From the NCBI GenBank assembly GCA_964570665.1, contig CAZMZH010000002.1:365642-429641 (forward strand): a DNA stretch of 64,000 bases, read 5' to 3'. Made by a program: the position numbers and the translations under genes. Numbering within the stretch: position 1 is the first letter of the stretch; every line of letters begins with the position of its first letter. A model generated the notes under the pieces. The model made no database searches, was not told the origin of the DNA, and worked only from the letters and a program-made list of their open reading frames with translations. This DNA comes from an uncultured Nitrospinota bacterium. Its GTDB lineage: Bacteria; Nitrospinota; Nitrospinia; Nitrospinales; JAJDAT01. This document shows positions 9,474 through 30,034 of this stretch, piece by piece.

Positions 9474-10568
9474 TTAATTTTCCTTTTTACTTTTTTTCTT
9501 TTTTTCAGAAGTTTCTGATGGTTCCGAATGTTCCACTCCGGATACGGTAGGTTCTATAGTGCCATCATGGGATGGAATTGCTAATTTTTGACGAATAACG
9601 ATTTCTACCTCGTTTAAAATATCTTTGTTTTCTTTAAGGAAGTTTTTGGCGTTTTCCCTACCTTGGCCAATTCGAGTTTCTTTGTATGAGTACCAAGTGC
9701 CGCTTTTTTTGATCAAATCGTGAGCCACTCCAAGGTCTAAAATATCCCCTTCTTTTGAAATGCCTTTTCCATAAAGGATATCAAATTCGCAATCCCTGAA
9801 AGGTGGGGCAACTTTATTTTTGACAACCTTAACTCGCGTACGGTTCCCTATAACACTATCCCCATCTTTTAAGGCTGCAATACGGCGAATGTCTAACCGA
9901 ACAGAACAATAAAACTTTAGAGCGTTTCCGCCAGTTGTGGTTTCAGGGTTGCCAAACATGACGCCAATTTTCATTCTTATTTGGTTAATAAAAATAAGTG
10001 AGCAGCGCGATTTACTAACAACTCCGGTTAATTTTCTCATTGCTTGAGACATTAATCTAGCTTGTAGGCCCATATGGGAGTCTCCCATATCGCCGTCTAA
10101 TTCAGCTTTTGGAACTAAGGCGGCAACAGAATCTACAACGACTACATCTACAGCTCCGCTTCTCACTAAGACTTCGGCTATTTCAAGTGTTTGCTCTCCT
10201 GTATCTGGTTGAGATAGCAGCAAGTCGTCTAAATTAACCCCTAAATTTTGCGCATAGTGTGGATCTAATGCATGTTCGGCGTCGATAAAGGCCGCTACGC
10301 CGCCAGCTTTTTGGGCTTCGGCTATTACATGCAGCGTAAGACTGGTTTTCCCGGAAGATTCTGGGCCGAAAATCTCAGTGATTCTTCCTCGTGGAACTCC
10401 GCCAACACCTAGAGCTGAGTCTAAAGAAATAGACCCTGTGGAAATAACTTGGATCCCTTTTTGAGCTTCGGCTTGGCCTAATTTCATTATGGAGCCTTTA
10501 CCGAATTGCTTTTCAATTTGCATAAAAGCCATTTCCAAAGCTTTATTTTTATTTTCGTCCGCGGCCAC
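9474..10568 (-). CDS. recA: Recombinase RecA
   Basis: 364 aa with [23 protein letters not shown], Walker [13 protein letters not shown], and [33 protein letters not shown] start preceded by GGAGGT. Confidence 0.97.
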
Positions 10569-10912
10569 CTTTAACCTCCTATTTACAATCTATAATCCGA
10601 AATTAAGTTTATTTTTATGATAACAACCAAATAGTTTCTTGTATCCAGTATCTTTCGGGATAAATGCAATTTTAAAAAGTATAATTTCCGATACTTCAAT
10701 ATCGCCAAAACCGATCCAAAAATTCGAGACCGATTCTATAAAAAACTTCAAAGTTAAATGAGTATTTTCTGGTTTAACCCAAGAGGCGTTTAAGTTAAGC
10801 CTTTTGAATTGATCCTTTATTCTTCTCTTAACTCTTTAAAAATTTTTGATTGGAGTTAACAGAGAAAAAACCCGAAAGGTTTCCAATTAGAAAACTGAAA
10901 AGGAGCGTCGAC

Positions 10913-10930
10913 TTCCTTAAAATTAAGGAA
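10913..10930. repeat. Perfect inverted repeat TTCCTTAA-AA-TTAAGGAA in the recA/cheB intergenic region (function unknown)
   Basis: Read directly. 8-bp arms with a 2-nt spacer. Confidence 0.45.
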
Positions 10931-11271
10931 AATTTGAAAAACTACCGTTTTTGGAGCTGATTTCTATCGTTCTAATTTTTCTTAAAGAATAGAGTTTAAA
11001 TTTGAGATCTTTTAAGAAGTCTCATTCAAGTTATAGCCTTCGAAATGCTAAATGGCAAGGGAATTATGGTTCAATTTCGCACCTTAAGGGAATTAGAAAA
11101 AATTGGATTTTAAACATTAACATAAGAGTTCAAAATAAATGGTATTTCAAGGTGTTATCTGCTATTTTCATAAAATAAGGAAATATGAATGCGAAGAATC
11201 GAAGCCATTTTTATATAGTATGGGTTAATTTTTGTTTTATAAGCATTTAATGTCAATTAATTAGGTGATTG

Positions 11272-12294
11272 ATGTCTAGTTTAAAAGTTTTAATAGTAGA
11301 AGACAGTTTAATAGTTCAAGAGGTTTTAAAGGAATTATTTTCATCTGACCCAGATATTGAAGTGGTTGGGGTCGCTGGAAATGGCCAAGAAGGAGTTCAT
11401 CAAGCTGAAAAATATAAGCCAGACATTATTACACTTGATATTAATATGCCAATAATGAATGGGTTGGATGCTATTGAAGAAATAATGGGTAGTCAACCAG
11501 TTCCTATTTTAGTAATTTCCAGCTCAGAAGACGCTAAAACGGCATTTGATGCTTGTTCAAGAGGAGCGCTAGAAGTATTTCCTAAAAGTAAATTAGATAC
11601 TGCTACAGCGGATGTTTTAATACATAAAGTTAAATTGTTATCCAAAATAAAAGTTATTCGTCGGTTCAAGAAGAAAAAAAGCCGAATTGCTATTTCGGAT
11701 TTCAATGGATCCGAAGTAACTGTATCGAAATTTGAAAAAGTAGTGGCAATAGCTTGTTCAACGGGAGGTCCAAAGGCTCTTTCGGTAATTTTATCTGAAT
11801 TAAATTCTCATTATCCTTTTCCAATAGCGATTGCGCAACATATGGAAAATGGTTTTGGAGCTGGGTTTGCGTCTTGGTTGAACGACATTTCTACAAATCC
11901 TGTTAGCGAGGCTAAAGAGGGGGACTATTTAATGCCCGGAAAGATTTATATCTGTCCGCCTGAATCTAATATGCAAATATCGCCAGACGGTAAAATTAAT
12001 TTTCTTGGAGCCACTGGAACGTCTTCTTTCAGGCCATCCTGCGATATTTTGTTAGCGTCTTTAGCCTATTCATTTCGAGAAAAAAGTGTGGGATTGATAT
12101 TGTCTGGAATGGCAGATGATGGAGTCGCTGGAATAGAGAAAATTAAGATTAATGGGGGAACCACTATCGCCCAGGACGAAGAAAGTAGCGTTGTGTTTGG
12201 CATGAATTCCCGGGCCATAAATGCCGGAGTTATTGAAAAAATTTTACCATTAAATAAAATTGCAATACATCTTAATCAATTAGCGCAGAGTTAA
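11272..12294 (+). CDS. cheB: Chemotaxis response regulator protein-glutamate methylesterase CheB (REC + CheB_methylest)
   Basis: REC domain (VLIVEDS ... DIITLDINMP) followed by a methylesterase domain (VVAIACSTGGPKAL ... AQHM ... GMADDG). ATG at 11272; the track starts 3 nt earlier at a TTG. Confidence 0.9.
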   Translation: MSSLKVLIVEDSLIVQEVLKELFSSDPDIEVVGVAGNGQEGVHQAEKYKPDIITLDINMPIMNGLDAIEEIMGSQPVPILVISSSEDAKTAFDACSRGALEVFPKSKLDTATADVLIHKVKLLSKIKVIRRFKKKKSRIAISDFNGSEVTVSKFEKVVAIACSTGGPKALSVILSELNSHYPFPIAIAQHMENGFGAGFASWLNDISTNPVSEAKEGDYLMPGKIYICPPESNMQISPDGKINFLGATGTSSFRPSCDILLASLAYSFREKSVGLILSGMADDGVAGIEKIKINGGTTIAQDEESSVVFGMNSRAINAGVIEKILPLNKIAIHLNQLAQS

Positions 12295-12297
12295 TTA

Positions 12298-13788
12298 ATG
12301 GCTATTGACGTATCAAATCAAGCGATGGATATTTTGCCTTTTAGGCAACTTTTAATTGAAAAAGTTTCTAGAGGTTATAAAGAAGATACGTTTAACCAAT
12401 TGCCTTCAGCAATAATTCAACGAATGGAATTGACCCAGATTGATAGGTTAGCTGAATATTTTTTTCTTTTAAAAAATGACGAAGCTGAAATTACAAAGTT
12501 GGTAAATTTATTGACCGTCAATGAAACTTATTTTATGCGGGAGCGGGGACATTTTAATATTTTGACTAACCGTTTATTTCCAGAGTTTATCCAAAATAGA
12601 AAAAATGACGAAAAATTTAGAATACTAAGCGCAGGATGTTCGTCCGGAGAAGAATTATATTCGGCTTTAATTTCCTTAACGTTAAAATTTGGTAAAGAAA
12701 TACTAAAGATGATTCATGCGGAGGGAATTGATATTGATTCGGAAGTCTTAGAAAGGGCTAAAAAAGGGATTTATAATCAAAATTCATTCAGGAATGTTGA
12801 CTCGTACTTTATGGACGCTTTTTTTTCTGAGCATGAAAGTGGATACAGAATTGCCGACAACTTTATAAATTCAGCTTATTTTAATAAAGTAAATTTAGCG
12901 GATTCTAATCCTTCTTTTGATGGAAAGTGGAACGTGATTTTTTATCGCAATGTTTCGATCTATTTTGTTCCTGAAATCAGAAAAATAATATTTAAAAAAT
13001 TAGCAAATGCATTGAAAGAACCAGGATATTTATTTGCTGGAGTTGTTGAAACGAGCCATCATAATTTTGGTGTTTTAGCGCTTGAAGAGATTGACGATAA
13101 TTATTTATTCAATAATGTAAGTCCGGTTTATAAAGAAAATAAAATACGACCTGAGAGTCCTAAAAAAGCAAAAAGAAAACTGTCTCCCAAAAAAAAGACC
13201 TTAACATCTTTATCTAGCGCCCAAGAAACGAAGATTAAAATAGAAAAATCGACTAAAAAAACCGCTAAACAAGATTCTTACGAGGAACTTTTTCAAAAAA
13301 CCTTAGGGTTTGCGAAAAACGGACAAAGGCAAAAAGCTTTGGATAACATTGAGATTTTATTTTCTAAAGAGGTTCCTAATGTTAACGATTATTTATTACG
13401 GGCTAATATTTTAGTTAATTTAGAGAGGTTAGACGAAGCTTTTCAGGATTGTTTAAATGTTTTAGAGATTGAAGAATGGAATCGTCAAGCCTATCTGCTT
13501 TTAGGAATTATTTGTCGTTTGCAAAAAAATCTCTCCGAGGCAGTTAAGCGTTTTAAGGGAGCGATTTATATTGAATCGTCTTGTTGGTTGTCGCATTTTT
13601 ATCTTGCCGAAATATTTGTAGAAACGGAAAACTATAAGGACGCTAAAAGAGAATATTCTATATCGAAAAAATTGTTGTTAGAGTTGGGTAGCTCTGAGTG
13701 CGGTTTGATGTTATTCCCACTGTCCTTTAATCAGGAGCAGTTAGTGGATCATTGTCAGCGTAAATTAAGAGAATTGGAAAAGAACTAA
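12298..13788 (+). CDS. cheR: Chemotaxis protein methyltransferase CheR with C-terminal TPR domain
   Basis: NETYFMRE and SAM-binding ILSAGCSSGEELYS motifs. The C-terminal ~170 aa have a TPR-like helical repeat pattern. Starts 3 bp after cheB. Confidence 0.88.
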   Translation: MAIDVSNQAMDILPFRQLLIEKVSRGYKEDTFNQLPSAIIQRMELTQIDRLAEYFFLLKNDEAEITKLVNLLTVNETYFMRERGHFNILTNRLFPEFIQNRKNDEKFRILSAGCSSGEELYSALISLTLKFGKEILKMIHAEGIDIDSEVLERAKKGIYNQNSFRNVDSYFMDAFFSEHESGYRIADNFINSAYFNKVNLADSNPSFDGKWNVIFYRNVSIYFVPEIRKIIFKKLANALKEPGYLFAGVVETSHHNFGVLALEEIDDNYLFNNVSPVYKENKIRPESPKKAKRKLSPKKKTLTSLSSAQETKIKIEKSTKKTAKQDSYEELFQKTLGFAKNGQRQKALDNIEILFSKEVPNVNDYLLRANILVNLERLDEAFQDCLNVLEIEEWNRQAYLLLGIICRLQKNLSEAVKRFKGAIYIESSCWLSHFYLAEIFVETENYKDAKREYSISKKLLLELGSSECGLMLFPLSFNQEQLVDHCQRKLRELEKN

Positions 13789-13803
13789 AACTTTATTGCG
13801 ACT

Positions 13804-16155
13804 ATGGCTTTTGATAAGAAAAAATTTATTCACAAATTTGTCGATGAAGCTAACGATCATATAGATAAGTTGAACGACGGTTTAGTGAGTTTGGAATCTA
13901 ACCCAGGAGATCAAGAGACCGTAAGCGAAATTTTTCGATCGGCGCATACGATTAAAGGTTCTTCTAGAATTTTAGGATTAATATCCATCAGTGTGGTTGC
14001 GCATAAACTGGAAGATGCTCTTTCAGCTTTAAGAGATGGAAAGATTTCTCAAAGCAAAGCTTTATTTAATTTGTTTTTTAAAGCGGCCGATTTAATTTCA
14101 GAATTTGTTCAAAGAGTTTCCGAAGGAGAAGAAGTAGAAGACGATACGACTGAAATTTGCGAACGTTTAGAGAAAGCCGCTTCAGGCGAAATGGAAAGTG
14201 AACCCGCGCCTTCTCCATCTTTAGAAAAAGTAGCTGATAAAAAAGAGGACCCTCCCCATGAGGTAAAAGTAAAAGAACCGATTCATGAAGAAAAAACTCC
14301 AGTTGTAAAAAAAGAAGAAGAGCAAGTTTCTATAAAAAAAGAACAGCCTTCTCCGGATTTAGCCTCACCAAAAGATATTTCGGTCGCTTCTCCATCCCCT
14401 AAGCCGCAAGCTCAAAAGCCGTTAAAGAAACCTCGCGTTTCTGAAACAGTTCGAGTTAAAACAGAAAAGTTAGATGAAACTGTTAATTTGATGGGTGAAA
14501 TTGTTTCAAATCATATCCGCTTAAAGCAAAATTGGGTCGATATAAATGAAATAGGAAAAATTTCTAAGAAATATTTGGAAAATTTTTCAGGATTTACTTA
14601 TGAAGATGGAAAACTGAGTCCTGAAGATAGTCGGGACTTATTTGAACAATTCCAAGGTATTTATGGGAAATTAAGACAACTTTCGGTTTGGACTAAAGAT
14701 GTTCTAAACTTTCAGACTCTTTTGACGGATCAGTTGCGCGAAAAAGTCTTAAAAATGAGAATGTTGCCATTGTCTACCGTTTTAGACGCTTTTCCAAGGA
14801 TGGTTCGAGACATATCCTCTACATGCGGTAAAGAAGTTAATTTTTTAGTCGAAGGCGGCGAAACGGAATTAGATAAAAAAATTATCGAAAAAATTGGCGA
14901 CCCTCTACTGCATATGATCCGAAACAGTGTAGATCATGGTATTGAAGCTCCTGGCGATCGAATCAGGGATGGCAAACCTGAAGCTGGAACTATTAGATTA
15001 AAAGCTTCTTATGAAGGCGGTAATGTTTTGATTGAGCTCCGCGATGATGGTTCCGGAATTCCCTTAAAAAAGATCAAAGAAAAGGCCATCGCAAAAAAGT
15101 TGTTCGGGGAAGAAATGCTGAACAATATGACCGAAAATGAGATCGTTAATTTGATTTTTAGGCCTGGATTCAGCACTAGCGCTTCGGTTACGGATGTTTC
15201 TGGACGAGGTGTAGGAATGGATGTCGTTCGGGAAAATATTGTTATGAACTTAAAGGGATCGATTCAAGTTGAAACTGTGGAGGGAAAAGGAACTTGTTTT
15301 TTTATCCGGTTGCCATTAACTCTAGCAGTGATGCGCGTTCTGTTGATTTCCGTTTCAAAATATAAATTTGCTCTTCCTCTAGATTTTGTAAAAGAAATAG
15401 TCAAAGCAAATAAAGACCAGATAATTAAAGTTGTGGATAAAAGAGCGATTTCTTTAAGAGAAGAAATCATTCCCATTGTAAATTTAGATTTTGCGCTAGA
15501 TTTACCTGAAAAGAGTAAAGAAAATTCGGAAGAGCTTAATATCGTCCTTGTAGAGATGGGTAATGAATGCCTGGGATTAGTAGTCGATACAATTTTAAGC
15601 GAAGAGGATATGGAAATTAAGTCATTACCCAATCATATGAAAAGTAATGAAATCGTATCGGGAGTTACCTTATCTGGTAAAAACGAGGTTGTTTTGGCTT
15701 TGCACGTGCCCAAATTATTTTTTATAGCTAAAGATGAAAATCCCGAAAAATTAGCCCCTGATTCCAATCGCGAAATTATTGAAGAGCCAAAACGTAATAT
15801 ATTAGTTGTTGACGACTCCGAAAGCGCAAGAGAAGTACAAAAGAGTATTTTAGAGTCTTCTGGTTATAATGTTGCGATTGCGGTAGATGGCATGGATGGT
15901 TATAGGGTAGCGCAAGAAGAGCAATTTGATTTGGTGATATCCGATATTGAAATGCCGAGAATGAATGGATTTGATTTTATCAAAAAACTAAAAATGGAAG
16001 ATTCATATCGACATACGCCGGTCATTGTCGTCAGTTCTCGAAATGAGGAATTATATAAAAGAAAAGGAATGCAGGCTGGGGCGGATGCATTTATTGTGAA
16101 AGGTGGATTTGATCAGACTAGATTATTAAAAATGGTACAAAACTTGATACATTAA
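13804..16155 (+). CDS. cheA: Hybrid histidine kinase CheA with C-terminal receiver (Hpt - linker - dimerisation/HATPase - CheW-like - REC)
   Basis: Hpt motif FRSAHTIKGSS, N-box DPLLHMIRNSVDHGIE, G1 DDGSGI, G2 GRGVGMDVV. CheW-like segment, then REC (ILVVDDSES ... DLVISDIEMPRMNG ... FIVKG). A Pro/Glu/Lys-rich linker replaces a P2 domain. Confidence 0.92.
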   Translation: MAFDKKKFIHKFVDEANDHIDKLNDGLVSLESNPGDQETVSEIFRSAHTIKGSSRILGLISISVVAHKLEDALSALRDGKISQSKALFNLFFKAADLISEFVQRVSEGEEVEDDTTEICERLEKAASGEMESEPAPSPSLEKVADKKEDPPHEVKVKEPIHEEKTPVVKKEEEQVSIKKEQPSPDLASPKDISVASPSPKPQAQKPLKKPRVSETVRVKTEKLDETVNLMGEIVSNHIRLKQNWVDINEIGKISKKYLENFSGFTYEDGKLSPEDSRDLFEQFQGIYGKLRQLSVWTKDVLNFQTLLTDQLREKVLKMRMLPLSTVLDAFPRMVRDISSTCGKEVNFLVEGGETELDKKIIEKIGDPLLHMIRNSVDHGIEAPGDRIRDGKPEAGTIRLKASYEGGNVLIELRDDGSGIPLKKIKEKAIAKKLFGEEMLNNMTENEIVNLIFRPGFSTSASVTDVSGRGVGMDVVRENIVMNLKGSIQVETVEGKGTCFFIRLPLTLAVMRVLLISVSKYKFALPLDFVKEIVKANKDQIIKVVDKRAISLREEIIPIVNLDFALDLPEKSKENSEELNIVLVEMGNECLGLVVDTILSEEDMEIKSLPNHMKSNEIVSGVTLSGKNEVVLALHVPKLFFIAKDENPEKLAPDSNREIIEEPKRNILVVDDSESAREVQKSILESSGYNVAIAVDGMDGYRVAQEEQFDLVISDIEMPRMNGFDFIKKLKMEDSYRHTPVIVVSSRNEELYKRKGMQAGADAFIVKGGFDQTRLLKMVQNLIH

Positions 16156-16241
16156 TTTTTAGATATACCTGAGCCAAGATTGATAGCAAAAGCTTTGGCT
16201 TTTTTCAAAATTTGTAAAATAAGTTGGAAGGCGAAAAAGTA

Positions 16242-18491
16242 ATGGGTTCTACCACCATATTAATTGTAGACGACGACAGTTTTGTTCGCGAAATATTGGT
16301 TGATATATTGGAGTCCGAAGATTTTAAAACTGATACGGCGGAAAATGGTTTAGATGCGCTCAATAAATATAAGGAAAATGCTTCCAAAATAGATGTCATT
16401 GTTTCCGATATTAATATGCCCATTATGGGTGGAGTTGATTTGATTAAAGCGCTTCGTAACGATGTCAAATCTGAAGTTCCAGTTGTTGTTTTGTCTGGAA
16501 ATAACGAAGTTGCCATTGCTATTGACGCAATTAATAGTGGGGCCAGCGAATATATTTTGAAGGACGAGAACTTGCAAGAGACTATCGTTTTGGCCTTAAA
16601 CAAGGCTTTGGAAAACAAACGAATTGTAGATGAAAATCGAGCTTTAGTTCACAACATAACCCAAAAGAATGAAGAAATGGGCGGCATAATTCAGCGAATG
16701 AATGATTTGGGAACCGCTCTTTCTGCAGAGAAAAATTTTCAAAACTTAATGGAGATTATTATTTCCAACGCTCGCGAATTAACTCATGCGGATGCAGGTA
16801 CTTTATATTTAATTGAAGATGAGAAACTATCATTTAAAATAGTTCAAAACGATACTCTAAAAATCCATCTAGGAGGAAAATCCAGCGAAGAAATTAAGTT
16901 TCCTCCAGTTGAAATAAAGGAATCTAATGTTTCAGGCTATTCTGCTTTAAAAAAAGAAGTTGTAAATATTCCAGACGTCTATTCTTCAGAATTGTTCGAT
17001 TTTACCGGCCCTAAAAAATTTGATCAAACTTCTAACTATAGATCGAAATCGATGTTAGTTGTTCCCATGGTAAATCGGATGAATGACGTTGTTGGGGTGC
17101 TTCAATTGCTTAATTCTAAAGATCCTGACACAGGTGAAGTTGTTACATTTTCGGAAAGTTCTGAAGAATACATAAAGGCTTTAGGGTCTCAGGCTGCTGT
17201 AGCCGTAAATAATTTGTTGTTAGAAGCGAAAGCGGAAAAACTTTTTGAAGAGATCTTAAATATAAAAAATTACAATGAAAGCATTCTTGAAAGTCTCACT
17301 AATGGCGTTATAACTTTAGATGCGAATAACCAAATAATTAAATGTAATGCTGCAGTATTAAGAATTTTAGAAACTCAAGAAGATCAAATTGTTAATCAAT
17401 CGGCCCAGAAATTTTTTGCGCAAAATAACCGGTGGGTGTTGGATAATTTAAAGCGAGTTATTCAAATGGGATCCCCCGCCATAGTGATGGATACCGAGTT
17501 AATTTTTGATAATGATCGAGTGGTTCCTCTAAATCTTACTGCAGTTCCTTTGAAAAACGCGAAGTCGGAATTAATTGGATCCATGTTAGTTTTAGAAGAT
17601 ATTACTTCTGAAAAGCGCATGAAAGGAACCCTCGCCAGGTACATGGATAAAGATGTCGCTGAACAATTGATGGAAGGCGGAGAAGATATGCTCGGCGGTC
17701 AAAGCCAGGAAGCTTCGGTTTTGTTTTCCGATATCCGAAGTTTTACTACGCTTACCGAGAAATTAGGTCCAGCGGGAACGGTGGCAATGTTAAATGAATA
17801 TTTTACGGAGATGGTTGATTATATTTTTAAGTATAAGGGAATACTTGATAAATATATAGGAGACGCAATTTTAGCTGTTTTTGGAGTTCCTTTTACAAAT
17901 GAGCAAGATCCCGAAAATGCCGTAAATGCTGCCATTGGAATGGTGAAATCTCTGACGGAATTTAATGCGAAAAGAATTCTAGAGAATAAAGATCCTATTG
18001 ATATTGGTATTGGGGTTAATACGGATACTGTCTTGGCTGGAAATATTGGATCTGAAAAAAGGATGGATTATACCGTAATTGGCGATGGAGTTAACTTAGC
18101 TGCCAGATTAGAAGGGGCTACAAAGTCTTATGGGGCAAAGATTTTGATTAGCGAATCCACAAAAAATAAGTTAACCCAAGACCATATATACCGCGAAGTT
18201 GACAAATTAGTTGTTAAAGGAAAAACTAAACCCGTTAGTGTTTTTGAAGTTTTAGATTTTCATAACGAATCAACTTTTCCTAAAATGAAGGAATGTTTAG
18301 AAATATTTAACGAAGGATATCAATCTTATCTTAAGCGAAATTGGGACGAAGGCGTTATGTTCTTTGAAGAAGTATTGACGCTCAATCCAAATGATAAGCC
18401 GGCATCTTTATATGTTGAACGATTGCGCCTTTATAAAGAGAATCCGCCTGCGGATGATTGGGACGGTTCTTTCGTGATGACCACTAAATAA
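16242..18491 (+). CDS. Response regulator fused to GAF, PAS and a class III nucleotidyl (probably adenylyl) cyclase domain
   Basis: REC (ILIVDDDS ... VIVSDINMPIMGG ... YILKDE). GAF-like region (ARELTHADAGTLYL ... MLVVPM), then a PAS-like region. Cyclase core has ASVLFSDIRSFTTL, KYIGDAILAVFG and YTVIGDGVNLAARLEG, followed by a TPR-like tail. ATG at 16242 preceded by GGAAGG; the track starts at an upstream TTG. Confidence 0.85.
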   Translation: MGSTTILIVDDDSFVREILVDILESEDFKTDTAENGLDALNKYKENASKIDVIVSDINMPIMGGVDLIKALRNDVKSEVPVVVLSGNNEVAIAIDAINSGASEYILKDENLQETIVLALNKALENKRIVDENRALVHNITQKNEEMGGIIQRMNDLGTALSAEKNFQNLMEIIISNARELTHADAGTLYLIEDEKLSFKIVQNDTLKIHLGGKSSEEIKFPPVEIKESNVSGYSALKKEVVNIPDVYSSELFDFTGPKKFDQTSNYRSKSMLVVPMVNRMNDVVGVLQLLNSKDPDTGEVVTFSESSEEYIKALGSQAAVAVNNLLLEAKAEKLFEEILNIKNYNESILESLTNGVITLDANNQIIKCNAAVLRILETQEDQIVNQSAQKFFAQNNRWVLDNLKRVIQMGSPAIVMDTELIFDNDRVVPLNLTAVPLKNAKSELIGSMLVLEDITSEKRMKGTLARYMDKDVAEQLMEGGEDMLGGQSQEASVLFSDIRSFTTLTEKLGPAGTVAMLNEYFTEMVDYIFKYKGILDKYIGDAILAVFGVPFTNEQDPENAVNAAIGMVKSLTEFNAKRILENKDPIDIGIGVNTDTVLAGNIGSEKRMDYTVIGDGVNLAARLEGATKSYGAKILISESTKNKLTQDHIYREVDKLVVKGKTKPVSVFEVLDFHNESTFPKMKECLEIFNEGYQSYLKRNWDEGVMFFEEVLTLNPNDKPASLYVERLRLYKENPPADDWDGSFVMTTK

Positions 18492-18554
18492 TAATTTTGC
18501 GACAAAAGATAATTTCGATTATTCATATTAGTTTGAAAAGTATGGAGGATTGCT

Positions 18555-19115
18555 GTGGGCGAAGAAATTGAAAAAAGAAAAAGCGATCGAATACTTGAAG
18601 CGATAAAAAAACGTTTGGATGAAAAACAAACTATCCAAGTCGAAGAGAAAAAGGTTGAACTTGTCGTGTTTACATTAAACGACGCCTTTTATGCGTTTTA
18701 TGGACAAGACGTTAAAGAAATCCTTTCAGTATTAACCATTTATTTTGTTCCAGGCACTCCAAAATACATTTTGGGAATCGTTAATGTTCGCGGAGATATT
18801 CAATCGGTATTAAATATTAGGACATTTTTAAATATCCCAGAAAATGAGTTGGTTGAGGCAAAAGGAAGAATTGTAATTGCCGAGAAAAATGATGTGCGAT
18901 CTGGAGTTCTAGTAGATTCTGTTGTTGATGTTGTTGATGTGCCAGAAGAGTCTATTAAACAGGCAATTTCAACCTTGAACGAAGATATTCGATATTTTGT
19001 TGTCGGAGAGACAACCTACAAAGAACATAACGTAGTGTTATTGGATATTGGAAAGGTTTTTGAAAAAATATCTGAAGGTAAGATTGAATCATCAGTTGAA
19101 ACTCCAAGCAAATGA
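18555..19115 (+). CDS. cheW: Chemotaxis coupling protein CheW
   Basis: 186 aa with the CheW-like fold pattern (LVVFTLNDAFYAF ... ILGIVNVRGDIQSVLNIR ... VLVDSVVDVVDV). GTG start with GGAGG upstream. Confidence 0.85.
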   Translation: MGEEIEKRKSDRILEAIKKRLDEKQTIQVEEKKVELVVFTLNDAFYAFYGQDVKEILSVLTIYFVPGTPKYILGIVNVRGDIQSVLNIRTFLNIPENELVEAKGRIVIAEKNDVRSGVLVDSVVDVVDVPEESIKQAISTLNEDIRYFVVGETTYKEHNVVLLDIGKVFEKISEGKIESSVETPSK

Positions 19116-19603
19116 ACGAAACTGCAATCAAAGCAATTAAAGAAAATGATTTAGTTGCCGAAGACGAAATTCGCTTATTGATTTTTAAAATTATGGGCGT
19201 TTGTTTTGGCGCAGACATGGAACAAATTGAGGAGATGGTTGACTTTTCCCAGGCCCAACAAGAGGACTGGGATATTAGACATTTTACAGAAGCAATTTCT
19301 TTTAGAGATATTGAGGTTGAATACAAAAAGCCAAAAGTAGTATTGATAAAAGATAGCGATCAAGATGTTGGTATTGTTATTGATCAGCCTGAAAATATAG
19401 TGAATATTAATTTTCAATCGATAAGATTACTACCTCCTCTTTTAGAAAATCAGGATACTGTAGATGCAATATGGGCGGCTTTATTTTTGGGAGAAGATTT
19501 AATTTTACTAGTGGATTTTTATCGTCTTCAAGATTGCCTACCCGAGGTAGAAAATTTGGAGTCGTTGGAAAAAACTAAAGATCTTGAAATTGAGTCTAAG
19601 TAA
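19112..19603 (+). CDS. Divergent CheW-like coupling protein
   Basis: 163 aa with an ATGA overlap onto the preceding cheW. Weak but recognisable CheW pattern (LLIFKIMGVCFGADMEQIEEMV ... VGIVIDQPENIVNI). Confidence 0.65.
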   Translation: MNETAIKAIKENDLVAEDEIRLLIFKIMGVCFGADMEQIEEMVDFSQAQQEDWDIRHFTEAISFRDIEVEYKKPKVVLIKDSDQDVGIVIDQPENIVNINFQSIRLLPPLLENQDTVDAIWAALFLGEDLILLVDFYRLQDCLPEVENLESLEKTKDLEIESK

Positions 19604-19768
19604 ATTTAAATTGTATAAAAATTAAGAGGGAATTTTGACGACAACGCGCAAACTTTTTATAGCCTGTAGTATTACGGTTAAAAGCTTTGACCATATCCGT
19701 TTTAATAATATTTCACAGGCAGCAAGCAGTCGTTTGATTAATAACGAATTGGTCCGGGAGGACGTTAA

Positions 19769-22204
19769 ATGAAAAACTGGTCTTTAAACAAAAAAGCTAT
19801 ATTTGTATTTAGTTTGATGATCGTAGTTATGGGATTTTGCGCCTACGTCATTTTTGACTCCTTGAGTTCAGCTCAAAAAGACGCGGATATCACCAACGCT
19901 TTGGGAAGACAAAGAATGCTGAGTCAGGCTATGGGTAAAGCCGCTTTGGGTAACGCTATGGCTAAAAGCCGCAAGCAGAATATAGTTCAACGCGTAAAGT
20001 CTCTGGATCATTATATTACTCAAATGCGAGGAACTTATACAAAGCAGGTAATTGGGCCAGCTAAAGAAAATGGTCTTGCAATTAGCATGGACCCCGAATC
20101 CGAAGGGCATCCGGCAATTCCTTTTCCCGCTACTTTGACGCGAATGGTGAACGCTAAGTTTGGAGCTGGCAGAGATTTTACTATCGATATTATTTCTCCA
20201 GATCCTGTAAACCCTGATAAAGGGTTAATCACGGATTTTGATAAAGAAGCTTATGAGTTTTTAACAAAAAAATCGAAAAGTGTTTTTACAAGAACTTTTG
20301 AATTGGACGATAAATTATATATCAGATTATATACCGCCGATAAGGCTACCGTTCAAGTTTGCGCTGATTGTCATATGGCTTTGAAGGGCGGAAAACGTTT
20401 TGCAATTGGAGATATTTTAGGTATCAGAAAGTACAATTTGTTGTTTTCAGCCGATATTTCTAGAGGGCGAAACGAATTAAACGCAAGCTTAACGGAGTTT
20501 GACCACGCTAAACAAATTTTTAAAGATACTTTAAAGGCTATGAGAAAGGGAGGGGAATATCCTGCAGATATGGGATTTAAAAAGTCGGTATCCGTAAACG
20601 CCATAAATAACGAAACAATTCAAGATAATCTTGAAGAAGTGGATAGAGTTTTTAACAAGTTTTTGGCGGCAGTGGATAACCTTCTTACTTCGGAAGTAAA
20701 TTCTCCAAGATATAGAGACGCGCAACAAGAAATTGTAAGTTTATCAAATGAATTGCGAGATAAGAGCAATAAGATTGTGGATTTGTATAATCGACTAGCC
20801 AATGAAAATCAAAAGCGTATAAAAAGTATAGTCATAGTTTTTGTTATTTTGATTTTAGCGGCTTTGATTAGCATAGCTTATTTCTTTTCTACTTCTGTTG
20901 TAAAACCGGTCCGTAAAATTTCTGGAGTTATGGGCGAAGTAGCCAAGGGAAATTTTATGCAGGAAAACTTGCCAGTGGTTTCTGAAGACGAAATTGGAGT
21001 ATTGTCCGATACTTATAATACGATGTTAGGCACCATGCGGCAAATTGTTAATCAGGCTAAAGATATAGCCGATGGCGATTTATCGAAAACTTATGAGTTG
21101 AAAGGAGAACTTTCTGTTGCTTTTGGGAAGATGACCAATGAGCTTAGAGACAAGCAAAACGCTGATATCGAATTTAAAGAAATGGCGACAGAGAGAGAAT
21201 CGCAGGCGGAAGATTTAAAGAATAAGGTCGACGCCATTTTGGAATGCGTTAGCGCTGCGGCAAAAGGAGACTTGAGCAAACATATAGATGTGAAGGGAGA
21301 ATCTGCCATCGGCCAAATGGGAGAAGGTCTGGAAATGTTTTTTGATAATTTGTCGACTAACATGAAGGGGATAGCTAACATGGCAAACGATTTGGCATTT
21401 TCCGCAAAAGAGATTTCAAGTTCTGTCCAAGATCAGGCATCGGTTTCCGCCGAGCAATCGGCGTCTGTAACTGAAATTTCTTCCACCGTAGAAGAACTTT
21501 CGGCTTCGTCAAATCAAGTCGCGGAGAATGCAGATTCTGTAGCCCGTATTTCAGCCGATTCGTTGCATGACTCTGAACGGGGTATGAAAGCTATTGGGTC
21601 TTTAAAGCTTAAGATGGATGAGATTTCTGAGGATAATCAGGGAGGAATGAAAGAAATTGTCGAATTAGGTAGAAAATCTAATGAAATTGGTAAAGTTATG
21701 GAAATAATTAACAATATTGCGGATCAAACCAAGTTAATTGCGTTTAATGCCGCTATAGAAGCCTCTAGCGCAGGTGAAGCGGGAAAACGTTTTGGAGTTG
21801 TAGCGGTTGAAATTCGCCAATTAGCAGATAATGTTATGGATTCGACGGGCGAAATCCAAAGCAAAATTGATGAAATTCAACAGGCTATTAATAGGTTAGT
21901 TATAAATTCAGAGCAAGGATCCAATCGAATTAAAGAAGGAAATATGTTGGCTGGACAAACAATTGAAGAATTAGAAAGATTGGTCGATAGAGCTAAAAGC
22001 GCTGCTGATGCGGCGTCTCAAATTTCTCTTTCGACAAAACAACAAAAAACGGGCACTGAACAAGTATTGTCGGCATTAAAAGAAATTGTTAATGGAACGC
22101 GGCAATCGTCGTCTGCGATTAAGCAAACCTCGAATGTGACGCATAAATTATCTGAAATGTCAGAAAGACTGAACGAACTAGTTAGTAGGTTTAAACTAGA
22201 TTAA
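19769..22204 (+). CDS. Methyl-accepting chemotaxis protein with a PilJ/NarX-type N-terminal motif and a CXXCH-containing periplasmic sensor domain
   Basis: TM1 (aa ~10-30), a ~320-aa periplasmic region with GRQRMLSQAMGKA and CADCH (nt 20360-20374), then TM2, HAMP-like segments and a signalling hairpin (IADQTKLIAFNAAIEASSAGEAGKRFGVVAVEIRQLAD). Confidence 0.9.
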   Translation: MKNWSLNKKAIFVFSLMIVVMGFCAYVIFDSLSSAQKDADITNALGRQRMLSQAMGKAALGNAMAKSRKQNIVQRVKSLDHYITQMRGTYTKQVIGPAKENGLAISMDPESEGHPAIPFPATLTRMVNAKFGAGRDFTIDIISPDPVNPDKGLITDFDKEAYEFLTKKSKSVFTRTFELDDKLYIRLYTADKATVQVCADCHMALKGGKRFAIGDILGIRKYNLLFSADISRGRNELNASLTEFDHAKQIFKDTLKAMRKGGEYPADMGFKKSVSVNAINNETIQDNLEEVDRVFNKFLAAVDNLLTSEVNSPRYRDAQQEIVSLSNELRDKSNKIVDLYNRLANENQKRIKSIVIVFVILILAALISIAYFFSTSVVKPVRKISGVMGEVAKGNFMQENLPVVSEDEIGVLSDTYNTMLGTMRQIVNQAKDIADGDLSKTYELKGELSVAFGKMTNELRDKQNADIEFKEMATERESQAEDLKNKVDAILECVSAAAKGDLSKHIDVKGESAIGQMGEGLEMFFDNLSTNMKGIANMANDLAFSAKEISSSVQDQASVSAEQSASVTEISSTVEELSASSNQVAENADSVARISADSLHDSERGMKAIGSLKLKMDEISEDNQGGMKEIVELGRKSNEIGKVMEIINNIADQTKLIAFNAAIEASSAGEAGKRFGVVAVEIRQLADNVMDSTGEIQSKIDEIQQAINRLVINSEQGSNRIKEGNMLAGQTIEELERLVDRAKSAADAASQISLSTKQQKTGTEQVLSALKEIVNGTRQSSSAIKQTSNVTHKLSEMSERLNELVSRFKLD

Positions 22205-22495
22205 ATTATAGTTTTTTAGGGATATCTTGAACTTTTTACCAATTAAACTTTGGTCTAACATTGTCGAAGTAAAGCGATCTAGAAATAACTGAATATTTTT
22301 TCGTATCGCATAAATTGAGTTACTCAAGGTTTTTGATTTTCTTTTAACCGGAGTAATATTGTTTTGTTTTAAAATTTGACGTTTTATTACTGTTTTAAAG
22401 GTTTCTGCAGTTATTTCTCCCGCAATCAGTTTCTTTTTTAGGCCCTGAACTCCTTTTGGGTTTAATCTAGTGTTTAATGTTACTGATTTGCCCAT
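22196..22495 (-). CDS. Hypothetical small basic protein (trimmed from the 150-aa track ORF)
   Basis: Internal ATG at 22495 is preceded by GGAAGGAAG. The longer form would overlap the divergent lipoprotein gene start. No family recognised. Confidence 0.3.
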   Translation of the reverse strand: MGKSVTLNTRLNPKGVQGLKKKLIAGEITAETFKTVIKRQILKQNNITPVKRKSKTLSNSIYAIRKNIQLFLDRFTSTMLDQSLIGKKFKISLKNYNLI

Positions 22496-22635
22496 AAAAC
22501 TTCCTTCCAAATAACGTTTTGCGTCAAAATTCCGATAAATATTATAAGGTGCAAAGCTAATGCCATTTTTTGTTTTATTAATTTTGCTTGCTAGTTTTAA
22601 AACCGCAAAAAGCGTGCAATATATTCTGATTTTGG

Positions 22636-23484
22636 GTGGAGGAAGCAATAATTAGCCTATTTTTAAAAAATACTAAGAAACATTTGTTCTTGGCGGCAGG
22701 AATTTTGGTGCTTTGGGCATCATTATTAGGTTGTGGTCAAAGCGAAGAAGAAATTATCGTAGTTGCTTCCGCTTTAAGATTAGATACGACCGCAGGCTTA
22801 CCCTACGATCAAATGGTTTTAGAAATTAGTTTTGAGCCTAATTTAAAAATTGATTCTTCGAAAAAAGACAAAGGTTCTAACGATAAAGATTTTTTGCTAC
22901 AACGCACGGAAGACGTAAAAATCCTTCCAGAATCTGAAATTAATCTCAATTATTTAAATCTTGATCGTTTTGAAGATTCTTTAGCGTATAAAAATAAAGC
23001 TGAGTTGGACGCAAGGCCAAATATAGGTATTGCCGAAAGGTTGCGTGTGGCTGATAAAAAACTTATTTTTGGAGGAAAGGGGTTTGATACTCGGGATTTT
23101 GAGGAATTAAATGATGGAAAGTTAAGCGGAGACTTTTCAACTTATATCAATCCTCCAAGGGAAAAATCAGCAAATCTTGGCGCCAAAGGCATTACAAACA
23201 TGAACCAAAAATTGCGACCAGAGGAAAAAAGCCTAATTTTTCATGGGGCTTTTTCTGCTTTAACGGAAACAGAAATCGAAATATCCTTAAACAATGAGGA
23301 AAATCAGAAAAAGAAGAAAAGTGTTAGAAATAATTTTCAAGAAACAAAAAAAATTCCTGAAACTTTAGTTCATTTAAAAAAGAGCCCTGAAGGGTTGATT
23401 CAGCTAAGACCTACAAGCAGCTCTTTGGACTTATTAAGGGAAAATCCGAGTATTATAAAAGACCGTTTTAGTAAAACTCCCTAA
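22636..23484 (+). CDS. Hypothetical lipoprotein
   Basis: 282 aa with an N-terminal signal and lipobox (ILVLWASLLG|C). GTG start. No domain recognised. Confidence 0.5.
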   Translation: MEEAIISLFLKNTKKHLFLAAGILVLWASLLGCGQSEEEIIVVASALRLDTTAGLPYDQMVLEISFEPNLKIDSSKKDKGSNDKDFLLQRTEDVKILPESEINLNYLNLDRFEDSLAYKNKAELDARPNIGIAERLRVADKKLIFGGKGFDTRDFEELNDGKLSGDFSTYINPPREKSANLGAKGITNMNQKLRPEEKSLIFHGAFSALTETEIEISLNNEENQKKKKSVRNNFQETKKIPETLVHLKKSPEGLIQLRPTSSSLDLLRENPSIIKDRFSKTP

Positions 23485-28482: not shown

Positions 28483-28512
28483 CTATGCCTCTTTTATCGT
28501 GATAAAGCGCGT

Positions 28513-29964: not shown

Positions 29965-30034
29965 TGGTCTAAGATAAAAAGTTTTTCTACATGATATCTT
30001 GAATTTATTTAAAACCCCAAGAGGTTTATAAAAA

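What the first reader, a model, noticed from the sequence alone, without database searches (positions are those of the whole stretch)
11272..22204. Wsp/Pil-Chp-like chemosensory operon whose response-regulator output is a class III nucleotidyl cyclase
Seen:
- Seven co-directional genes have gaps of 3, 15, 86, 63, -4 and 165 bp.
- They are CheB, CheR-TPR, a CheA-REC hybrid, REC-GAF-PAS-cyclase, CheW, a CheW-like protein and an MCP.
- The window contains no stand-alone CheY, no CheZ/C/D/X and no flagellar genes.
- The cyclase REC keeps DD, the phospho-acceptor D (VSDINMP) and K.
- The cyclase core keeps both metal Asp (FSDIRSF, YIGDA) and the Asn/Arg pair (GVNLAARLE).
- Its specificity positions look like Lys...Thr, as in class IIIb adenylyl cyclases.

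Established:
- Wsp has the same parts list (CheA-REC, two CheW, CheR with TPR, CheB) but outputs to a REC-GGDEF protein.
- In Pseudomonas aeruginosa the Pil-Chp system controls cAMP through the class III cyclase CyaB by an indirect, incompletely understood route.

Inference: the REC domain is fused directly to the cyclase inside the operon, and the MCP carries a PilJ-type N-terminal motif. That acts as a Rosetta-stone-like argument for a direct chemosensory-to-cAMP (or cGMP) pathway. I am not aware of a characterised example.
Basis: partly seen in the sequence, partly recalled or inferred. Interest (0 to 1): 0.75.

Follow-up and report, generated by a model that had tools for sequence, protein, structure and literature searches.

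The report
Chemosensory operon with adenylyl cyclase output
This is a Wsp-type (non-motility) bacterial chemosensory operon in which the usual c-di-GMP-making output protein has been replaced by a receiver-fused class III adenylyl cyclase. The receptor array therefore most likely sets cAMP levels directly, an arrangement listed once in a 2012 genome survey but never studied experimentally.

Summary
Seven co-directional genes (11272-22204, +) encode CheB, CheR-TPR, CheA-REC, REC-GAF-PAS-cyclase, CheW, a weak CheW-like protein and an MCP, with every quoted motif and gap present.

The cyclase has all class IIIb adenylyl cyclase residues, invariant in 19 homologues. The che-cyclase linkage recurs in Ca. 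Nitronauta litoralis with the same gene order. It also recurs in a third assembly with a rearranged order plus a downstream cNMP-binding gene.

The REC plus linker of the cyclase is 49-55% identical to the REC of a REC-GGDEF (WspR-like) protein and of a REC-histidine-kinase. Both sit in the same slot after CheA-REC in sibling clusters. It is only 29-33% identical to the REC of distant orphan REC-GAF-PAS-cyclases. This is therefore an ACF/Wsp-type system with a swapped effector.

The PilJ/Pil-Chp likeness is not supported. The MCP sensor is a Tll0287-like (DUF3365) c-heme domain with an invariant CxxCH motif, recently proposed as an NO sensor.

A REC-cyclase in a CheR-TPR cluster was already catalogued in 2012 (strain NaphS2). 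Some close orthologues are orphans.

Verdict: real, a new variant of a known kind, moderately interesting. Phosphotransfer and the product are untested.

The parts
10569..11271 (.). 700-bp AT-rich non-coding region between recA (-) and cheB (+); presumed promoter region of the operon
   Evidence: Sequence read. The consensus scan gives only weak sigma-70-like sites, no more than in shuffled sequence. No Rfam family found. The promoter itself is not identified.
11272..12294 (+). CheB methylesterase (REC + CheB_methylest), adaptation enzyme
   Evidence: Pfam, (187 and 73 bits). NCBIfam CheB subfamily 319 bits against a cut-off of 293. 48% identical to the L001 orthologue.
12298..13788 (+). CheR methyltransferase fused to C-terminal TPR repeats
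   Evidence: Pfam CheR 138 bits, plus several sub-threshold TPR families at aa 365-423. CheR-TPR is reported as typical of ACF clusters (PMC3447774).
13804..16155 (+). Hybrid CheA: Hpt (His in AHTIKGS), low-complexity linker with no P2 detected, dimerisation, HATPase, CheW-like P5 and C-terminal REC
   Evidence: Pfam; sequence. Its roughly 45-53%-identical homologues lie in Wsp-like clusters.
16242..18491 (+). Output response regulator: REC - long helix - GAF - PAS - class IIIb adenylyl cyclase - C-terminal three-helix TPR-like cap (749 aa)
   Evidence: Pfam. Invariant residues. PDB sequence matches. AlphaFold2 model with mean pLDDT 78.7, helix 111-162 joining REC to GAF and helix 305-339 joining GAF to PAS. 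Foldseek TM about 0.8 to the Cya2, CyaC and CyaB catalytic domains.
16257..16580 (+). REC domain of the cyclase (aa 6-113; D10, D11, phospho-acceptor D56, S84, K107)
   Evidence: 49-55% identical to the REC of the REC-GGDEF in L089 and the REC-HK in L171.
16740..17207 (+). GAF domain (aa 167-322), of the cyclic-nucleotide-binding GAF type by similarity
   Evidence: Best PDB matches are the Anabaena CyaB2 GAF tandem 1ykd (E 1e-19) and the PDE5, PDE2 and PDE10 GAFs. The ligand is not determined.
17277..17603 (+). PAS domain (aa 346-454)
   Evidence: Pfam PAS/PAS_9/PAS_4.
17703..18233 (+). Class III cyclase catalytic domain (aa 488-664): metal Asp D497 and D541, Lys537/Thr611 specificity pair, Asn618/Arg622
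   Evidence: Residue-by-residue alignment to P. aeruginosa CyaB 3r5g (DKFVGD/DKYIGD; MDYTIIG/MDYTVIG).
18555..19115 (+). CheW coupling protein
   Evidence: Pfam 87.8 bits. 60-64% identical to the L001 and L084 orthologues.
19112..19603 (+). Second, divergent CheW-like coupling protein (analogous to the WspB/WspD pair)
   Evidence: Pfam CheW 26.6 bits against a cut-off of 23.5. A homologous weak-CheW gene follows CheW in all six related clusters examined: 27% identical in L001 and 36-45% identical in L084 and L168-L171.
19769..22204 (+). Transmembrane MCP: periplasmic sensor (aa ~30-345), TM, HAMP plus two further HAMP-like segments, 40H-type signalling domain
   Evidence: Pfam. The alignment to E. 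coli Tsr shows 14-residue insertions on each arm. Best NCBIfam match is P. aeruginosa CtpM.
19967..20383 (+). Tll0287-like (DUF3365) sensor domain, called sCache_heme in a 2026 preprint, with CxxCH at 20360-20374
   Evidence: Pfam 37.6 bits against a cut-off of 24.1. CADCH translated. C198, C201 and H202 are invariant in 4 orthologous or paralogous MCPs. Family properties are from bioRxiv 10.64898/2026.02.01.703092.

Best explanation
The locus is an ACF-class (Wsp-type) chemosensory operon whose output slot holds a receiver-fused adenylyl cyclase instead of a receiver-fused diguanylate cyclase.

Proposed mechanism:
1. A transmembrane 40H chemoreceptor carries a periplasmic c-type-heme Tll0287-like (DUF3365) domain. 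By analogy with characterised family members it is likely a sensor of NO or redox state.
2. Together with CheW and a second CheW-like protein, the receptor controls the hybrid kinase CheA-REC.
3. The CheA Hpt histidine passes phosphate to Asp56 of the REC-GAF-PAS-cyclase.
4. The change is carried along a 50-residue helix through the GAF and PAS domains to the class IIIb catalytic domain, which must dimerise to be active. This alters cAMP synthesis.
5. CheR-TPR and CheB methylate and demethylate the receptor, so the cAMP output adapts.
6. The GAF domain, closest to cNMP-binding GAFs, and the PAS domain add cytoplasmic inputs. cAMP feedback as in Anabaena CyaB1 is possible.

Shown here: the gene set, the domain architecture, intact catalytic and phospho-acceptor residues, conserved linkage, and REC-module homology with Wsp-type outputs.

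Inferred: phosphotransfer, activation rather than inhibition, cAMP as the product, the NO/redox stimulus, and the downstream effectors.
For: Architecture and residues:
- Domains and gaps are as described.
- Catalytic D497/D541, K537/T611 and N618/R622, and REC D10/D11/D56/K107, are invariant in 19 homologues. The pattern is the same as in the P. aeruginosa class IIIb adenylyl cyclase CyaB. Fold TM is about 0.8 to CyaB, CyaC and Cya2.

Linkage:
- The identical 7-gene order occurs in Ca. Nitronauta litoralis, where the cyclase is 59% identical (L001).
- All seven genes occur again in GCA_029261555.1, but in the order W-W'-MCP-B-R-A-cyclase, followed by a 116-aa cNMP-binding gene (L084).

Sibling clusters (CheA about 46-53% identical) have the same core and a variable gene after CheA-REC:
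- REC-GGDEF (L089).
- REC-HK plus Hpt-REC-GGDEF (L171).
- REC-HK-REC-Hpt (L170).
- A single REC (L169).

REC module:
- The cyclase's REC plus linker (aa 1-146) is 49-55% identical to the REC of the L089 REC-GGDEF and the L171 REC-HK. It is 29-33% identical to the REC of distant orphan REC-GAF-PAS-cyclases.
- Of the 37 closest single-REC representatives taken from a library of 1.84 billion proteins, 8 are REC-HK, 5 carry a cyclase domain, 4 are REC-GGDEF, 3 are REC-SpoIIE and 2 are REC-HD-GYP. This matches the output palette described for ACF pathways (PMC3447774).

Other:
- There is no other REC in the 64 kb window.
- The sensor domain is above Pfam threshold with an invariant CxxCH. Signalling-linked members of this family bind NO, not O2 (preprint).
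Against: - No experiment supports this. Phosphotransfer, the sign of regulation and the product are all inferred.
- A 56%-identical orthologue with the same REC type (L173) and a 51%-identical paralogue in the same assembly (L086) are not next to che genes. More distant REC-GAF-PAS-cyclases are also orphans (L002, L003, L087, L172, L008, L026) or follow a conventional hybrid histidine kinase (L036). The REC-cyclase can therefore work with other kinases.
- Formal class assignment of CheA with MiST models was not possible.
- Adjacency was verified directly in only three loci; the other co-occurrences rest on contig-length coincidence.
- The taxon of the window is inferred from best hits only.
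- No cAMP receptor gene was found in the window.
Confidence: 0.65

Rival explanations
1. The cyclase gene merely sits inside the operon. Its REC is phosphorylated by a different histidine kinase. The real output of the chemosensory system is CheA's own REC, CheB, or an unlinked CheY-like protein.
For: Close and distant homologues of the REC-GAF-PAS-cyclase occur without che genes (L173 at 56% identity, L086, L087, L002, L003, L172). One follows a PAS-rich hybrid histidine kinase (L036). Some sibling ACF clusters have no output gene after CheA (L168).
Against: The linkage survives a gene-order rearrangement (L084 against the window and L001). The REC is of the same subfamily as those of the REC-GGDEF and REC-HK in the same slot of sibling clusters. 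The gap to cheA is short (86 bp) with no terminator-like site in it. There is no other REC in the window.
Confidence: 0.17
2. It is a Pil-Chp-like (Tfp-class) system that controls type IV pilus function. cAMP is a side branch, as in Pseudomonas aeruginosa.
For: A sub-threshold PilJ N-terminal match covers the ITNALGRQRMLSQ helix (20.1 bits). A prepilin peptidase gene lies 2.5 kb upstream on the other strand (8016-8789). The cyclase catalytic domain resembles CyaB.
Against: CheA has one Hpt domain, not the multi-Hpt ChpA type. There are no PilG/PilH-like single REC genes. CheR carries TPR repeats and the response regulator is multidomain, both ACF hallmarks (PMC3447774). The sensor domain is Tll0287-like above threshold. 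recA and recX lie between pilD and the operon. The nearest CheA relatives sit in Wsp-like clusters.
Confidence: 0.06
3. The cyclase domain does not make cAMP. It makes cGMP or another product, or it is catalytically dead and the protein serves as a phosphate sink or scaffold.
For: Its best sequence match in the PDB is the Cya2 catalytic domain, which is a guanylyl cyclase. Activity was not measured.
Against: Cya2 has Glu and Gly at the specificity positions (DEFMGD; KYGVVG). This protein has Lys537 and Thr611, as in the adenylyl cyclase CyaB. Both metal Asp residues and the Asn/Arg pair are invariant in 19 homologues.
Confidence: 0.07

Closest known systems
Wsp system of Pseudomonas (WspA-F, WspR); ACF class of Wuichet & Zhulin 2010
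   Same: MCP, two CheW-type proteins, CheR with TPR, CheB, a CheA-REC hybrid and a REC-fused nucleotide cyclase as the only response-regulator output. A sibling cluster (L089) with CheA 46%, CheW 50% and CheB 43% identical carries a REC-GGDEF whose REC plus linker is 49% identical to that of this cyclase.
   Different: The effector is GAF-PAS-class III adenylyl cyclase (cAMP expected) rather than GGDEF (c-di-GMP). The receptor sensor is a periplasmic c-heme Tll0287-like (DUF3365) domain. The gene order is B-R-A-output-W-W'-MCP.
Pil-Chp / PilG / FimL-FimV / CyaB route to cAMP in P. aeruginosa
   Same: A chemosensory system upstream of a class IIIb adenylyl cyclase. The catalytic domain aligns with CyaB (3r5g) at E 9e-33, with the same Lys/Thr pair and TM about 0.8.
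   Different: There the link is indirect, through the single-domain PilG and accessory proteins (my knowledge, and abstracts seen). ChpA has many Hpt domains, and CyaB has a membrane MASE2 domain and no REC. Here REC and cyclase are one polypeptide, and the system is ACF-like, not Tfp-like.
Anabaena CyaB1/CyaB2 (GAF-GAF-PAS-cyclase, class IIIb)
   Same: GAF-PAS-cyclase core with a C-terminal helical extension. The GAF is closest to the CyaB2 GAF tandem 1ykd. Cyanobacterial homologues align over residues 127-749 at 36-37% identity (L077, L078, L082, L083).
   Different: One GAF instead of two, and an N-terminal REC. cAMP binding by this GAF has not been shown.
'REC - CHD mononucleotidyl cyclase' in the CheR-TPR cluster of delta proteobacterium NaphS2 (CheR-TPR D8FCI6; Munoz-Martinez et al. 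2012, PMC3447774, Table S2)
   Same: A receiver-cyclase fusion encoded in a CheR-TPR (ACF-type) chemosensory cluster. This is the only published mention I found.
   Different: It is listed as REC-CHD without GAF/PAS, in a Desulfobacterota strain, and appears only as a table entry with no analysis or experiment. I could not retrieve that sequence to compare it.
Receiver-regulated class III cyclases of two-component type (for example Spirulina/Anabaena CyaC)
   Same: Cyclase activity governed by an attached REC domain (my knowledge). The Spirulina CyaC catalytic domain (1wc0) matches at E 2e-21. L036 shows a hybrid HK followed by a REC-HAMP-GAF-PAS-cyclase.
   Different: The phosphodonor there is a conventional or intramolecular histidine kinase, not a receptor-coupled, methylation-adapted CheA.
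c-heme sensor domains of chemoreceptors (Geobacter GSU0582/GSU0935; the Tll0287/DUF3365 family, named sCache_heme in a 2026 preprint)
   Same: A periplasmic sensor with CxxCH fused to HAMP and MCP signalling domains.
   Different: Those receptors are not known to feed a cyclase. The ligand here is untested.

Membership tests
ACF-class chemosensory system (Wuichet & Zhulin 2010; MiST) | Core MCP + CheA + CheW encoded together, with CheB and CheR | tested here: met
   Pfam.
ACF-class chemosensory system (Wuichet & Zhulin 2010; MiST) | Multidomain response regulator (REC fused to an output domain) in the cluster, and no single-domain CheY | tested here: met
   REC-GAF-PAS-Guanylate_cyc. Only three REC domains in 64 kb. 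Feature as described in PMC3447774.
ACF-class chemosensory system (Wuichet & Zhulin 2010; MiST) | CheR fused to TPR repeats | tested here: met
   CheR 138 bits plus several TPR families at aa 365-423, each below its own cut-off. The same architecture occurs in all related clusters.
ACF-class chemosensory system (Wuichet & Zhulin 2010; MiST) | No CheC/CheD/CheX/CheZ/CheV auxiliary genes | tested here: met
   None found among the ORFs scanned in the window.
ACF-class chemosensory system (Wuichet & Zhulin 2010; MiST) | CheA (P3-P4-P5 core) assigned to the ACF class by class-specific HMMs or phylogeny | not testable with these tools
   No MiST models are available. As a surrogate, the CheA homologues at 46-53% identity lie in Wsp-like clusters with REC-GGDEF, REC-HK or single-REC outputs.
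ACF-class chemosensory system (Wuichet & Zhulin 2010; MiST) | Receptor of a compatible heptad class (WspA is 40H, from my knowledge) | tested here: inconclusive
   14-residue insertions on both arms relative to 36H Tsr imply 40H. The best NCBIfam match is CtpM. No heptad-class HMM was run.
Wsp system in the strict sense | Output is WspR, a REC-GGDEF diguanylate cyclase | tested here: not met
   The output carries Guanylate_cyc, not GGDEF. It works like Wsp but is not a Wsp orthologue set.
Tfp (Pil-Chp) class | ChpA-type CheA with multiple Hpt domains | tested here: not met
   A single Hpt at aa 9-97.
Tfp (Pil-Chp) class | PilG/PilH single-domain response regulators in the cluster | tested here: not met
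   No stand-alone REC in the window.
Tfp (Pil-Chp) class | PilJ-type N-terminal sensor domain (PF13675) | tested here: not met
   20.1 bits against a cut-off of 26.6, covering only aa 32-87.
Class IIIb adenylyl cyclase | Class III catalytic domain fold | tested here: met
   Pfam 92 bits. Foldseek TM 0.78-0.82 to Cya2, CyaC and CyaB.
Class IIIb adenylyl cyclase | Two metal-binding Asp residues and the Asn/Arg transition-state pair | tested here: met
   D497, D541, N618 and R622 are invariant in 19 sequences.
Class IIIb adenylyl cyclase | Substrate-specifying Lys, and Thr in place of the canonical Asp | tested here: met
   K537 and T611 are invariant and align with the same residues of CyaB 3r5g.
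Class IIIb adenylyl cyclase | cAMP synthesis (and bicarbonate response) | not testable with these tools
   Needs an enzyme assay.
Phosphorylatable response-regulator receiver | Acidic pair, phospho-acceptor Asp, Ser/Thr and Lys | tested here: met
   D10, D11, D56 and K107 are invariant. S84 seen in VVLSGN.
Tll0287-like / DUF3365 c-heme sensor domain (named sCache_heme in a 2026 preprint) | Match to PF11845 and a conserved CxxCH | tested here: met
   37.6 bits against a cut-off of 24.1. CADCH at 20360-20374, invariant in 4 MCPs. The motif is 99% conserved in the family (preprint).
Tll0287-like / DUF3365 c-heme sensor domain (named sCache_heme in a 2026 preprint) | Covalent heme and NO binding | not testable with these tools
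   The single-sequence AlphaFold model was unusable (pLDDT 40.6). Spectroscopy is needed.

The most novel reading that the evidence does not exclude
A methylation-adapted chemoreceptor array is wired directly, by CheA-to-REC phosphotransfer, to a class IIIb adenylyl cyclase. cAMP would then be set by a chemotaxis-style sensor with gain and adaptation rather than by a one-step sensor. The likely hosts are relatives of marine nitrite-oxidising Nitrospinota. There the input would be periplasmic NO or redox state, read by a c-heme Tll0287-like (DUF3365) receptor, and a cNMP-type GAF domain could add cAMP feedback. This would be the first demonstrated direct route from a chemosensory system to cAMP. 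It would also be a natural counterpart to the indirect Pil-Chp/CyaB route.
Probability: 0.5. Interest if true: 0.65.

Novelty: new variant of a known kind. Interest (0 to 1): 0.5.

Why it matters
Chemosensory pathways with non-motility outputs are common in genomes, but only a few outputs have been studied: c-di-GMP through WspR, and transcription or development in Myxococcus and Rhodospirillum.

How a chemosensory system controls cAMP is still unclear in Pseudomonas, the one case that has been studied. A system in which the receiver and the cyclase are one protein gives a simple, reconstitutable model of four parts: receptor, CheW, CheA and REC-cyclase.

The REC-module comparison also shows concretely how ACF outputs evolve. 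The same receiver and linker are attached to GGDEF, histidine kinase, PP2C phosphatase, HD-GYP or cyclase domains.

If the hosts are nitrite oxidisers, an NO- or redox-sensing receptor driving cAMP would bear on how these organisms regulate their physiology. The published Nitrospinota genome analyses I checked do not mention chemosensory or cAMP signalling.

Tried and rejected
It returned mostly REC-less GAF-PAS-cyclases and none of the close relatives. None of the 80 loci had che genes next to the cyclase; L036 has a hybrid HK.
- The metagenome-contig scan with the single protein matched mainly generic REC domains. Only L089 was useful. L088 is an unrelated flagellar-type cluster beside a FecR/CHASE2-cyclase pair.
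- The word-indexed protein search with the REC domain alone returned fragments. It was replaced by the exhaustive representative search, whose ranking was polluted by multi-REC proteins, so only single-stretch hits were used.
- The single-sequence AlphaFold model of the MCP sensor domain failed (pLDDT 40.6), so no fold search was run on it.
- NCBIfam gave no class-level information.
- Cluster look-ups gave no taxon names. The Nitrospinota origin of the window rests on best named hits only: Ca. Nitronauta litoralis, and a caspase-like protein 58% identical to one from Nitrospina sp..
- Wuichet & Zhulin 2010 could not be read.
- Rfam found no family and the consensus scans no convincing promoter in the 700-bp leader.
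- Rejected: PilJ/Tfp membership; a guanylyl cyclase reading; a functional link to pilD.

Full report
**Observation.** The ORF list, start-codon inspection and Pfam confirm seven co-directional genes on the + strand:
- CheB, 11272-12294
- CheR with C-terminal TPR repeats, 12298-13788
- a hybrid CheA, 13804-16155 (Hpt, dimerisation, HATPase, CheW-like, REC; no P2 detected)
- a 749-aa REC-GAF-PAS-Guanylate_cyc protein, 16242-18491
- CheW, 18555-19115
- a weak CheW-like protein, 19112-19603 (26.6 bits against a cut-off of 23.5)
- an 811-aa MCP, 19769-22204

All quoted peptide motifs are present. No terminator-like site falls in an intergenic gap of the cluster. A 700-bp non-coding region precedes cheB.

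tblastn with REC queries finds only the three REC domains of CheB, CheA and the cyclase in the 64 kb window. Pfam scans of 55 of the 56 ORFs of at least 120 aa found no CheY, CheZ/C/D/X/V or flagellar family above threshold.

**The cyclase.** In an alignment of 19 full-length REC-GAF-PAS-cyclase homologues, three sets of residues are invariant:
- the receiver residues D10, D11, D56 and K107
- the catalytic residues D497 and D541 (metals) and N618 and R622 (transition state)
- the specificity pair K537 and T611

The residue-by-residue alignment with P. aeruginosa CyaB (3r5g) shows the same DK..GD and MDYT.IG patterns. The guanylyl cyclase Cya2 has Glu and Gly at those positions. This is therefore a class IIIb adenylyl cyclase by sequence.

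The GAF domain is closest to cyclic-nucleotide-binding GAFs: the Anabaena CyaB2 tandem 1ykd at E 1e-19, and the PDE5, PDE2 and PDE10 GAFs.

An AlphaFold2 model built on the 19-sequence alignment has mean pLDDT 78.7. It shows a continuous helix (residues 111-162) from REC to GAF, another (305-339) from GAF to PAS, and a confident three-helix C-terminal cap. Foldseek gives TM about 0.8 to the Cya2, CyaC and CyaB catalytic domains. It matches the REC-GAF part to a dual-sensor histidine kinase solved with BeF3-.

**Conservation of the linkage.**
- The best named relative, Ca. Nitronauta litoralis (cyclase 59% identical), has the identical seven-gene order. A second Tll0287-like MCP lies downstream (L001).
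- A 54%-identical cyclase in GCA_029261555.1 lies in a cluster with all seven genes, arranged as CheW, CheW-like, MCP, CheB, CheR-TPR, CheA-REC, cyclase. A 116-aa cNMP-binding gene follows (L084). Retaining the set through a rearrangement argues for function rather than inherited synteny.
- Contig lengths in the CheA and cyclase hit lists coincide for twelve more contigs. This suggests, but does not prove, further linked cases.
- Against universality, a 56%-identical orthologue (L173) and a 51%-identical paralogue in the same assembly (L086) have no che neighbours.
- The 40-46%-identical proteins (L002, L003, L087, L172, L008, L026) also have no che neighbours.
- In L036 a REC-HAMP-GAF-PAS-cyclase follows a PAS-rich hybrid histidine kinase.

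**What kind of chemosensory system.** CheA homologues at 46-53% identity lie in clusters with the same core: CheW, weak CheW, MCP, CheB, CheR-TPR, CheA-REC. The gene after CheA varies:
- nothing (L168)
- a single REC (L169, Nitrospina sp.)
- REC-HK-REC-Hpt (L170, Anammoxibacter)
- REC-HK plus Hpt-REC-GGDEF (L171, Nitrospirae)
- a 322-aa REC-GGDEF, that is, a WspR-like protein (L089)

The parts list and variable multidomain output match the description of the ACF family. CheR-TPR is reported as its marker (PMC3447774).

Relative to 36H Tsr, the MCP signalling domain has 14-residue insertions on both arms, implying a 40H receptor.

Features of the Tfp class are absent: there is one Hpt domain, there are no PilG/PilH genes, and the PilJ hit is below cut-off.

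**The key comparison.** The first 146 residues of the cyclase (REC plus the start of the long helix) compare as follows:
- 55% (REC domain alone) or 50% (140 aligned residues, 81% positives) identical to the REC-HK that follows CheA in L171
- 49% identical to the REC-GGDEF that follows CheA in L089
- 51-56% identical to orthologous cyclases
- only 29-33% identical to the REC of the distant orphan REC-GAF-PAS-cyclases, even though their GAF-PAS-cyclase parts are about 45% identical

An exhaustive search of 1.84 billion representative proteins with the REC domain, followed by Pfam on the 37 closest single-REC hits, gave:
- 8 REC-HK
- 5 with a cyclase domain, including REC-CHD and REC-GAF-CHD
- 4 REC-GGDEF
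- 3 REC-SpoIIE
- 2 REC-(GAF)-HD-GYP
- 1 REC-GAF-Rce1-like

The receiver is therefore a shared chassis of ACF-type outputs, onto which different effectors have been grafted just after the linker helix. This is the strongest available evidence, short of biochemistry, that this REC is the cognate partner of the neighbouring CheA.

**The receptor.** The periplasmic region matches Tll0287-like (DUF3365) above threshold. It contains CADCH at 20360-20374. The CxxCH motif is invariant in the four related MCPs, as is the N-terminal ITNALGRQRML helix that produced the weak PilJ hit.

A 2026 preprint from the Zhulin and Crane groups reclassifies this family as a Cache domain with covalently bound c-type heme (sCache_heme). 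It finds the domain fused to MCPs, kinases and cyclic-nucleotide enzymes. It reports that a signalling-linked member binds NO tightly and does not form a stable O2 complex. NO or redox sensing is thus a reasonable but untested input.

**Mechanism proposed.** Receptor state controls CheA through the two coupling proteins. CheA-P donates to D56 of the cyclase. The signal travels along the helical spine through GAF and PAS and changes how the two catalytic domains pair, and with it cAMP output. CheR-TPR and CheB provide adaptation. CheA's own REC may act as a sink or relay. GAF and PAS add cytoplasmic inputs. The sign of regulation is unknown. The cNMP-binding gene after the cyclase in L084 is a candidate effector there. 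No such gene was found in the window.

**Comparison with the known, and novelty.** The system works like Wsp, but with cAMP in place of c-di-GMP. It fails the strict Wsp membership test because it has no GGDEF domain. It is not Pil-Chp-like, so the Rosetta-stone link to PilG-CyaB is only an analogy based on a shared class IIIb catalytic domain.

The existence of a REC-cyclase in a CheR-TPR cluster was recorded in 2012 for strain NaphS2, as one table row and one legend entry. My searches found no experimental study of a CheA-to-cyclase pathway. Two Nitrospinota genome papers do not mention chemosensory or cAMP signalling.

I rate it a new variant of a known kind, of moderate interest. The architecture is not a surprise to specialists in ACF pathways. 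It does offer a clean, directly testable model for chemosensory control of cAMP, and a clear example of effector swapping on a conserved receiver.

**Caveats.**
- The taxon is inferred from best hits only.
- Class assignment is by surrogate, not by the MiST models.
- Only three loci were verified for adjacency.
- All functional steps beyond sequence features are inferred.

Noticed in passing
window 27952-34308 (-): An orphan CheW (27952-28482) lies next to a caspase-like Peptidase_C14 protein (28513-30048), two leucine-rich-repeat proteins (30035-32134) and an NHL-repeat propeller protein (32155-34308), all on the minus strand. The caspase-like protein is 58% identical to a Peptidase_C14 gene about 2 kb downstream of the Nitrospina sp. 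ACF cluster in L169. A recurring CheW/che-caspase neighbourhood is unexplained.
   Followed up: partly
L084 12639-12989 (+): A 116-aa stand-alone cNMP-binding protein (Pfam 86.8 bits) is encoded directly after the che-linked cyclase. It is a candidate cAMP effector. No homologue was found in the window or in L001.
   Followed up: partly
L001 17045-19423 (+): Ca. Nitronauta litoralis has a second Tll0287-like MCP paralogue (41% identical) about 1.2 kb downstream of the operon. Its signalling domain is shorter, lacking 11 and 7 residues on the two arms, so it may belong to another heptad class.
   Followed up: no
L173 17240-18644 (-): In the assembly with the orphan 56%-identical cyclase, an MMPL/RND-type transporter fused to a cNMP-binding domain lies about 9 kb away. 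A weak Flagellin_N gene is also nearby.
   Followed up: no
window 8016-8789 (-): A prepilin peptidase (PilD; A24_N_bact + Peptidase_A24) lies 2.5 kb upstream of the operon. It is separated from it by recX (8931-9413) and recA (9474-10568). There is no evidence of a functional link.
   Followed up: no
window 7406-7927 (-): A 173-aa ORF gives a sub-threshold FliJ match (24.1 against 28.4 bits). It is probably a coiled-coil artefact. It is the only flagellar-family hit in the window.
   Followed up: no
window 10569-11271: An unusually long (700 bp) AT-rich non-coding leader precedes cheB. No Rfam family and no convincing promoter were found.
   Followed up: partly
window 50091-50170 (+): A tRNA-Leu overlaps the mechanical GTG start of the trigger-factor ORF (50097-51518). 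The real start is probably near residue 35. A tig-clpP-clpX-lon cluster follows (50097-55970).
   Followed up: no
window 59449-61173 (+): A protein with two cytochrome c domains fused to an ethylbenzene-dehydrogenase-type (EB_dh) heme domain. It is followed by a 444-aa ORF (61173-62507) with no Pfam family.
   Followed up: no
L088 8072-10849 (+): A FecR protein plus a CHASE2-Guanylate_cyc cyclase sit divergently beside a flagellar-type che cluster (CheA without REC, CheV, CheY). This is a different and probably coincidental che-cyclase neighbourhood. It resembles the CHASE2 cyclase cluster described for Campylobacterota in PMC9239204.
   Followed up: partly
window 22196-23484: Two ORFs directly after the MCP (150 aa on the minus strand, 282 aa on the plus strand) have no Pfam or NCBIfam family. 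An FGE-sulfatase gene follows (23719-24807, -), as one also does after the MCP in L001.
   Followed up: no
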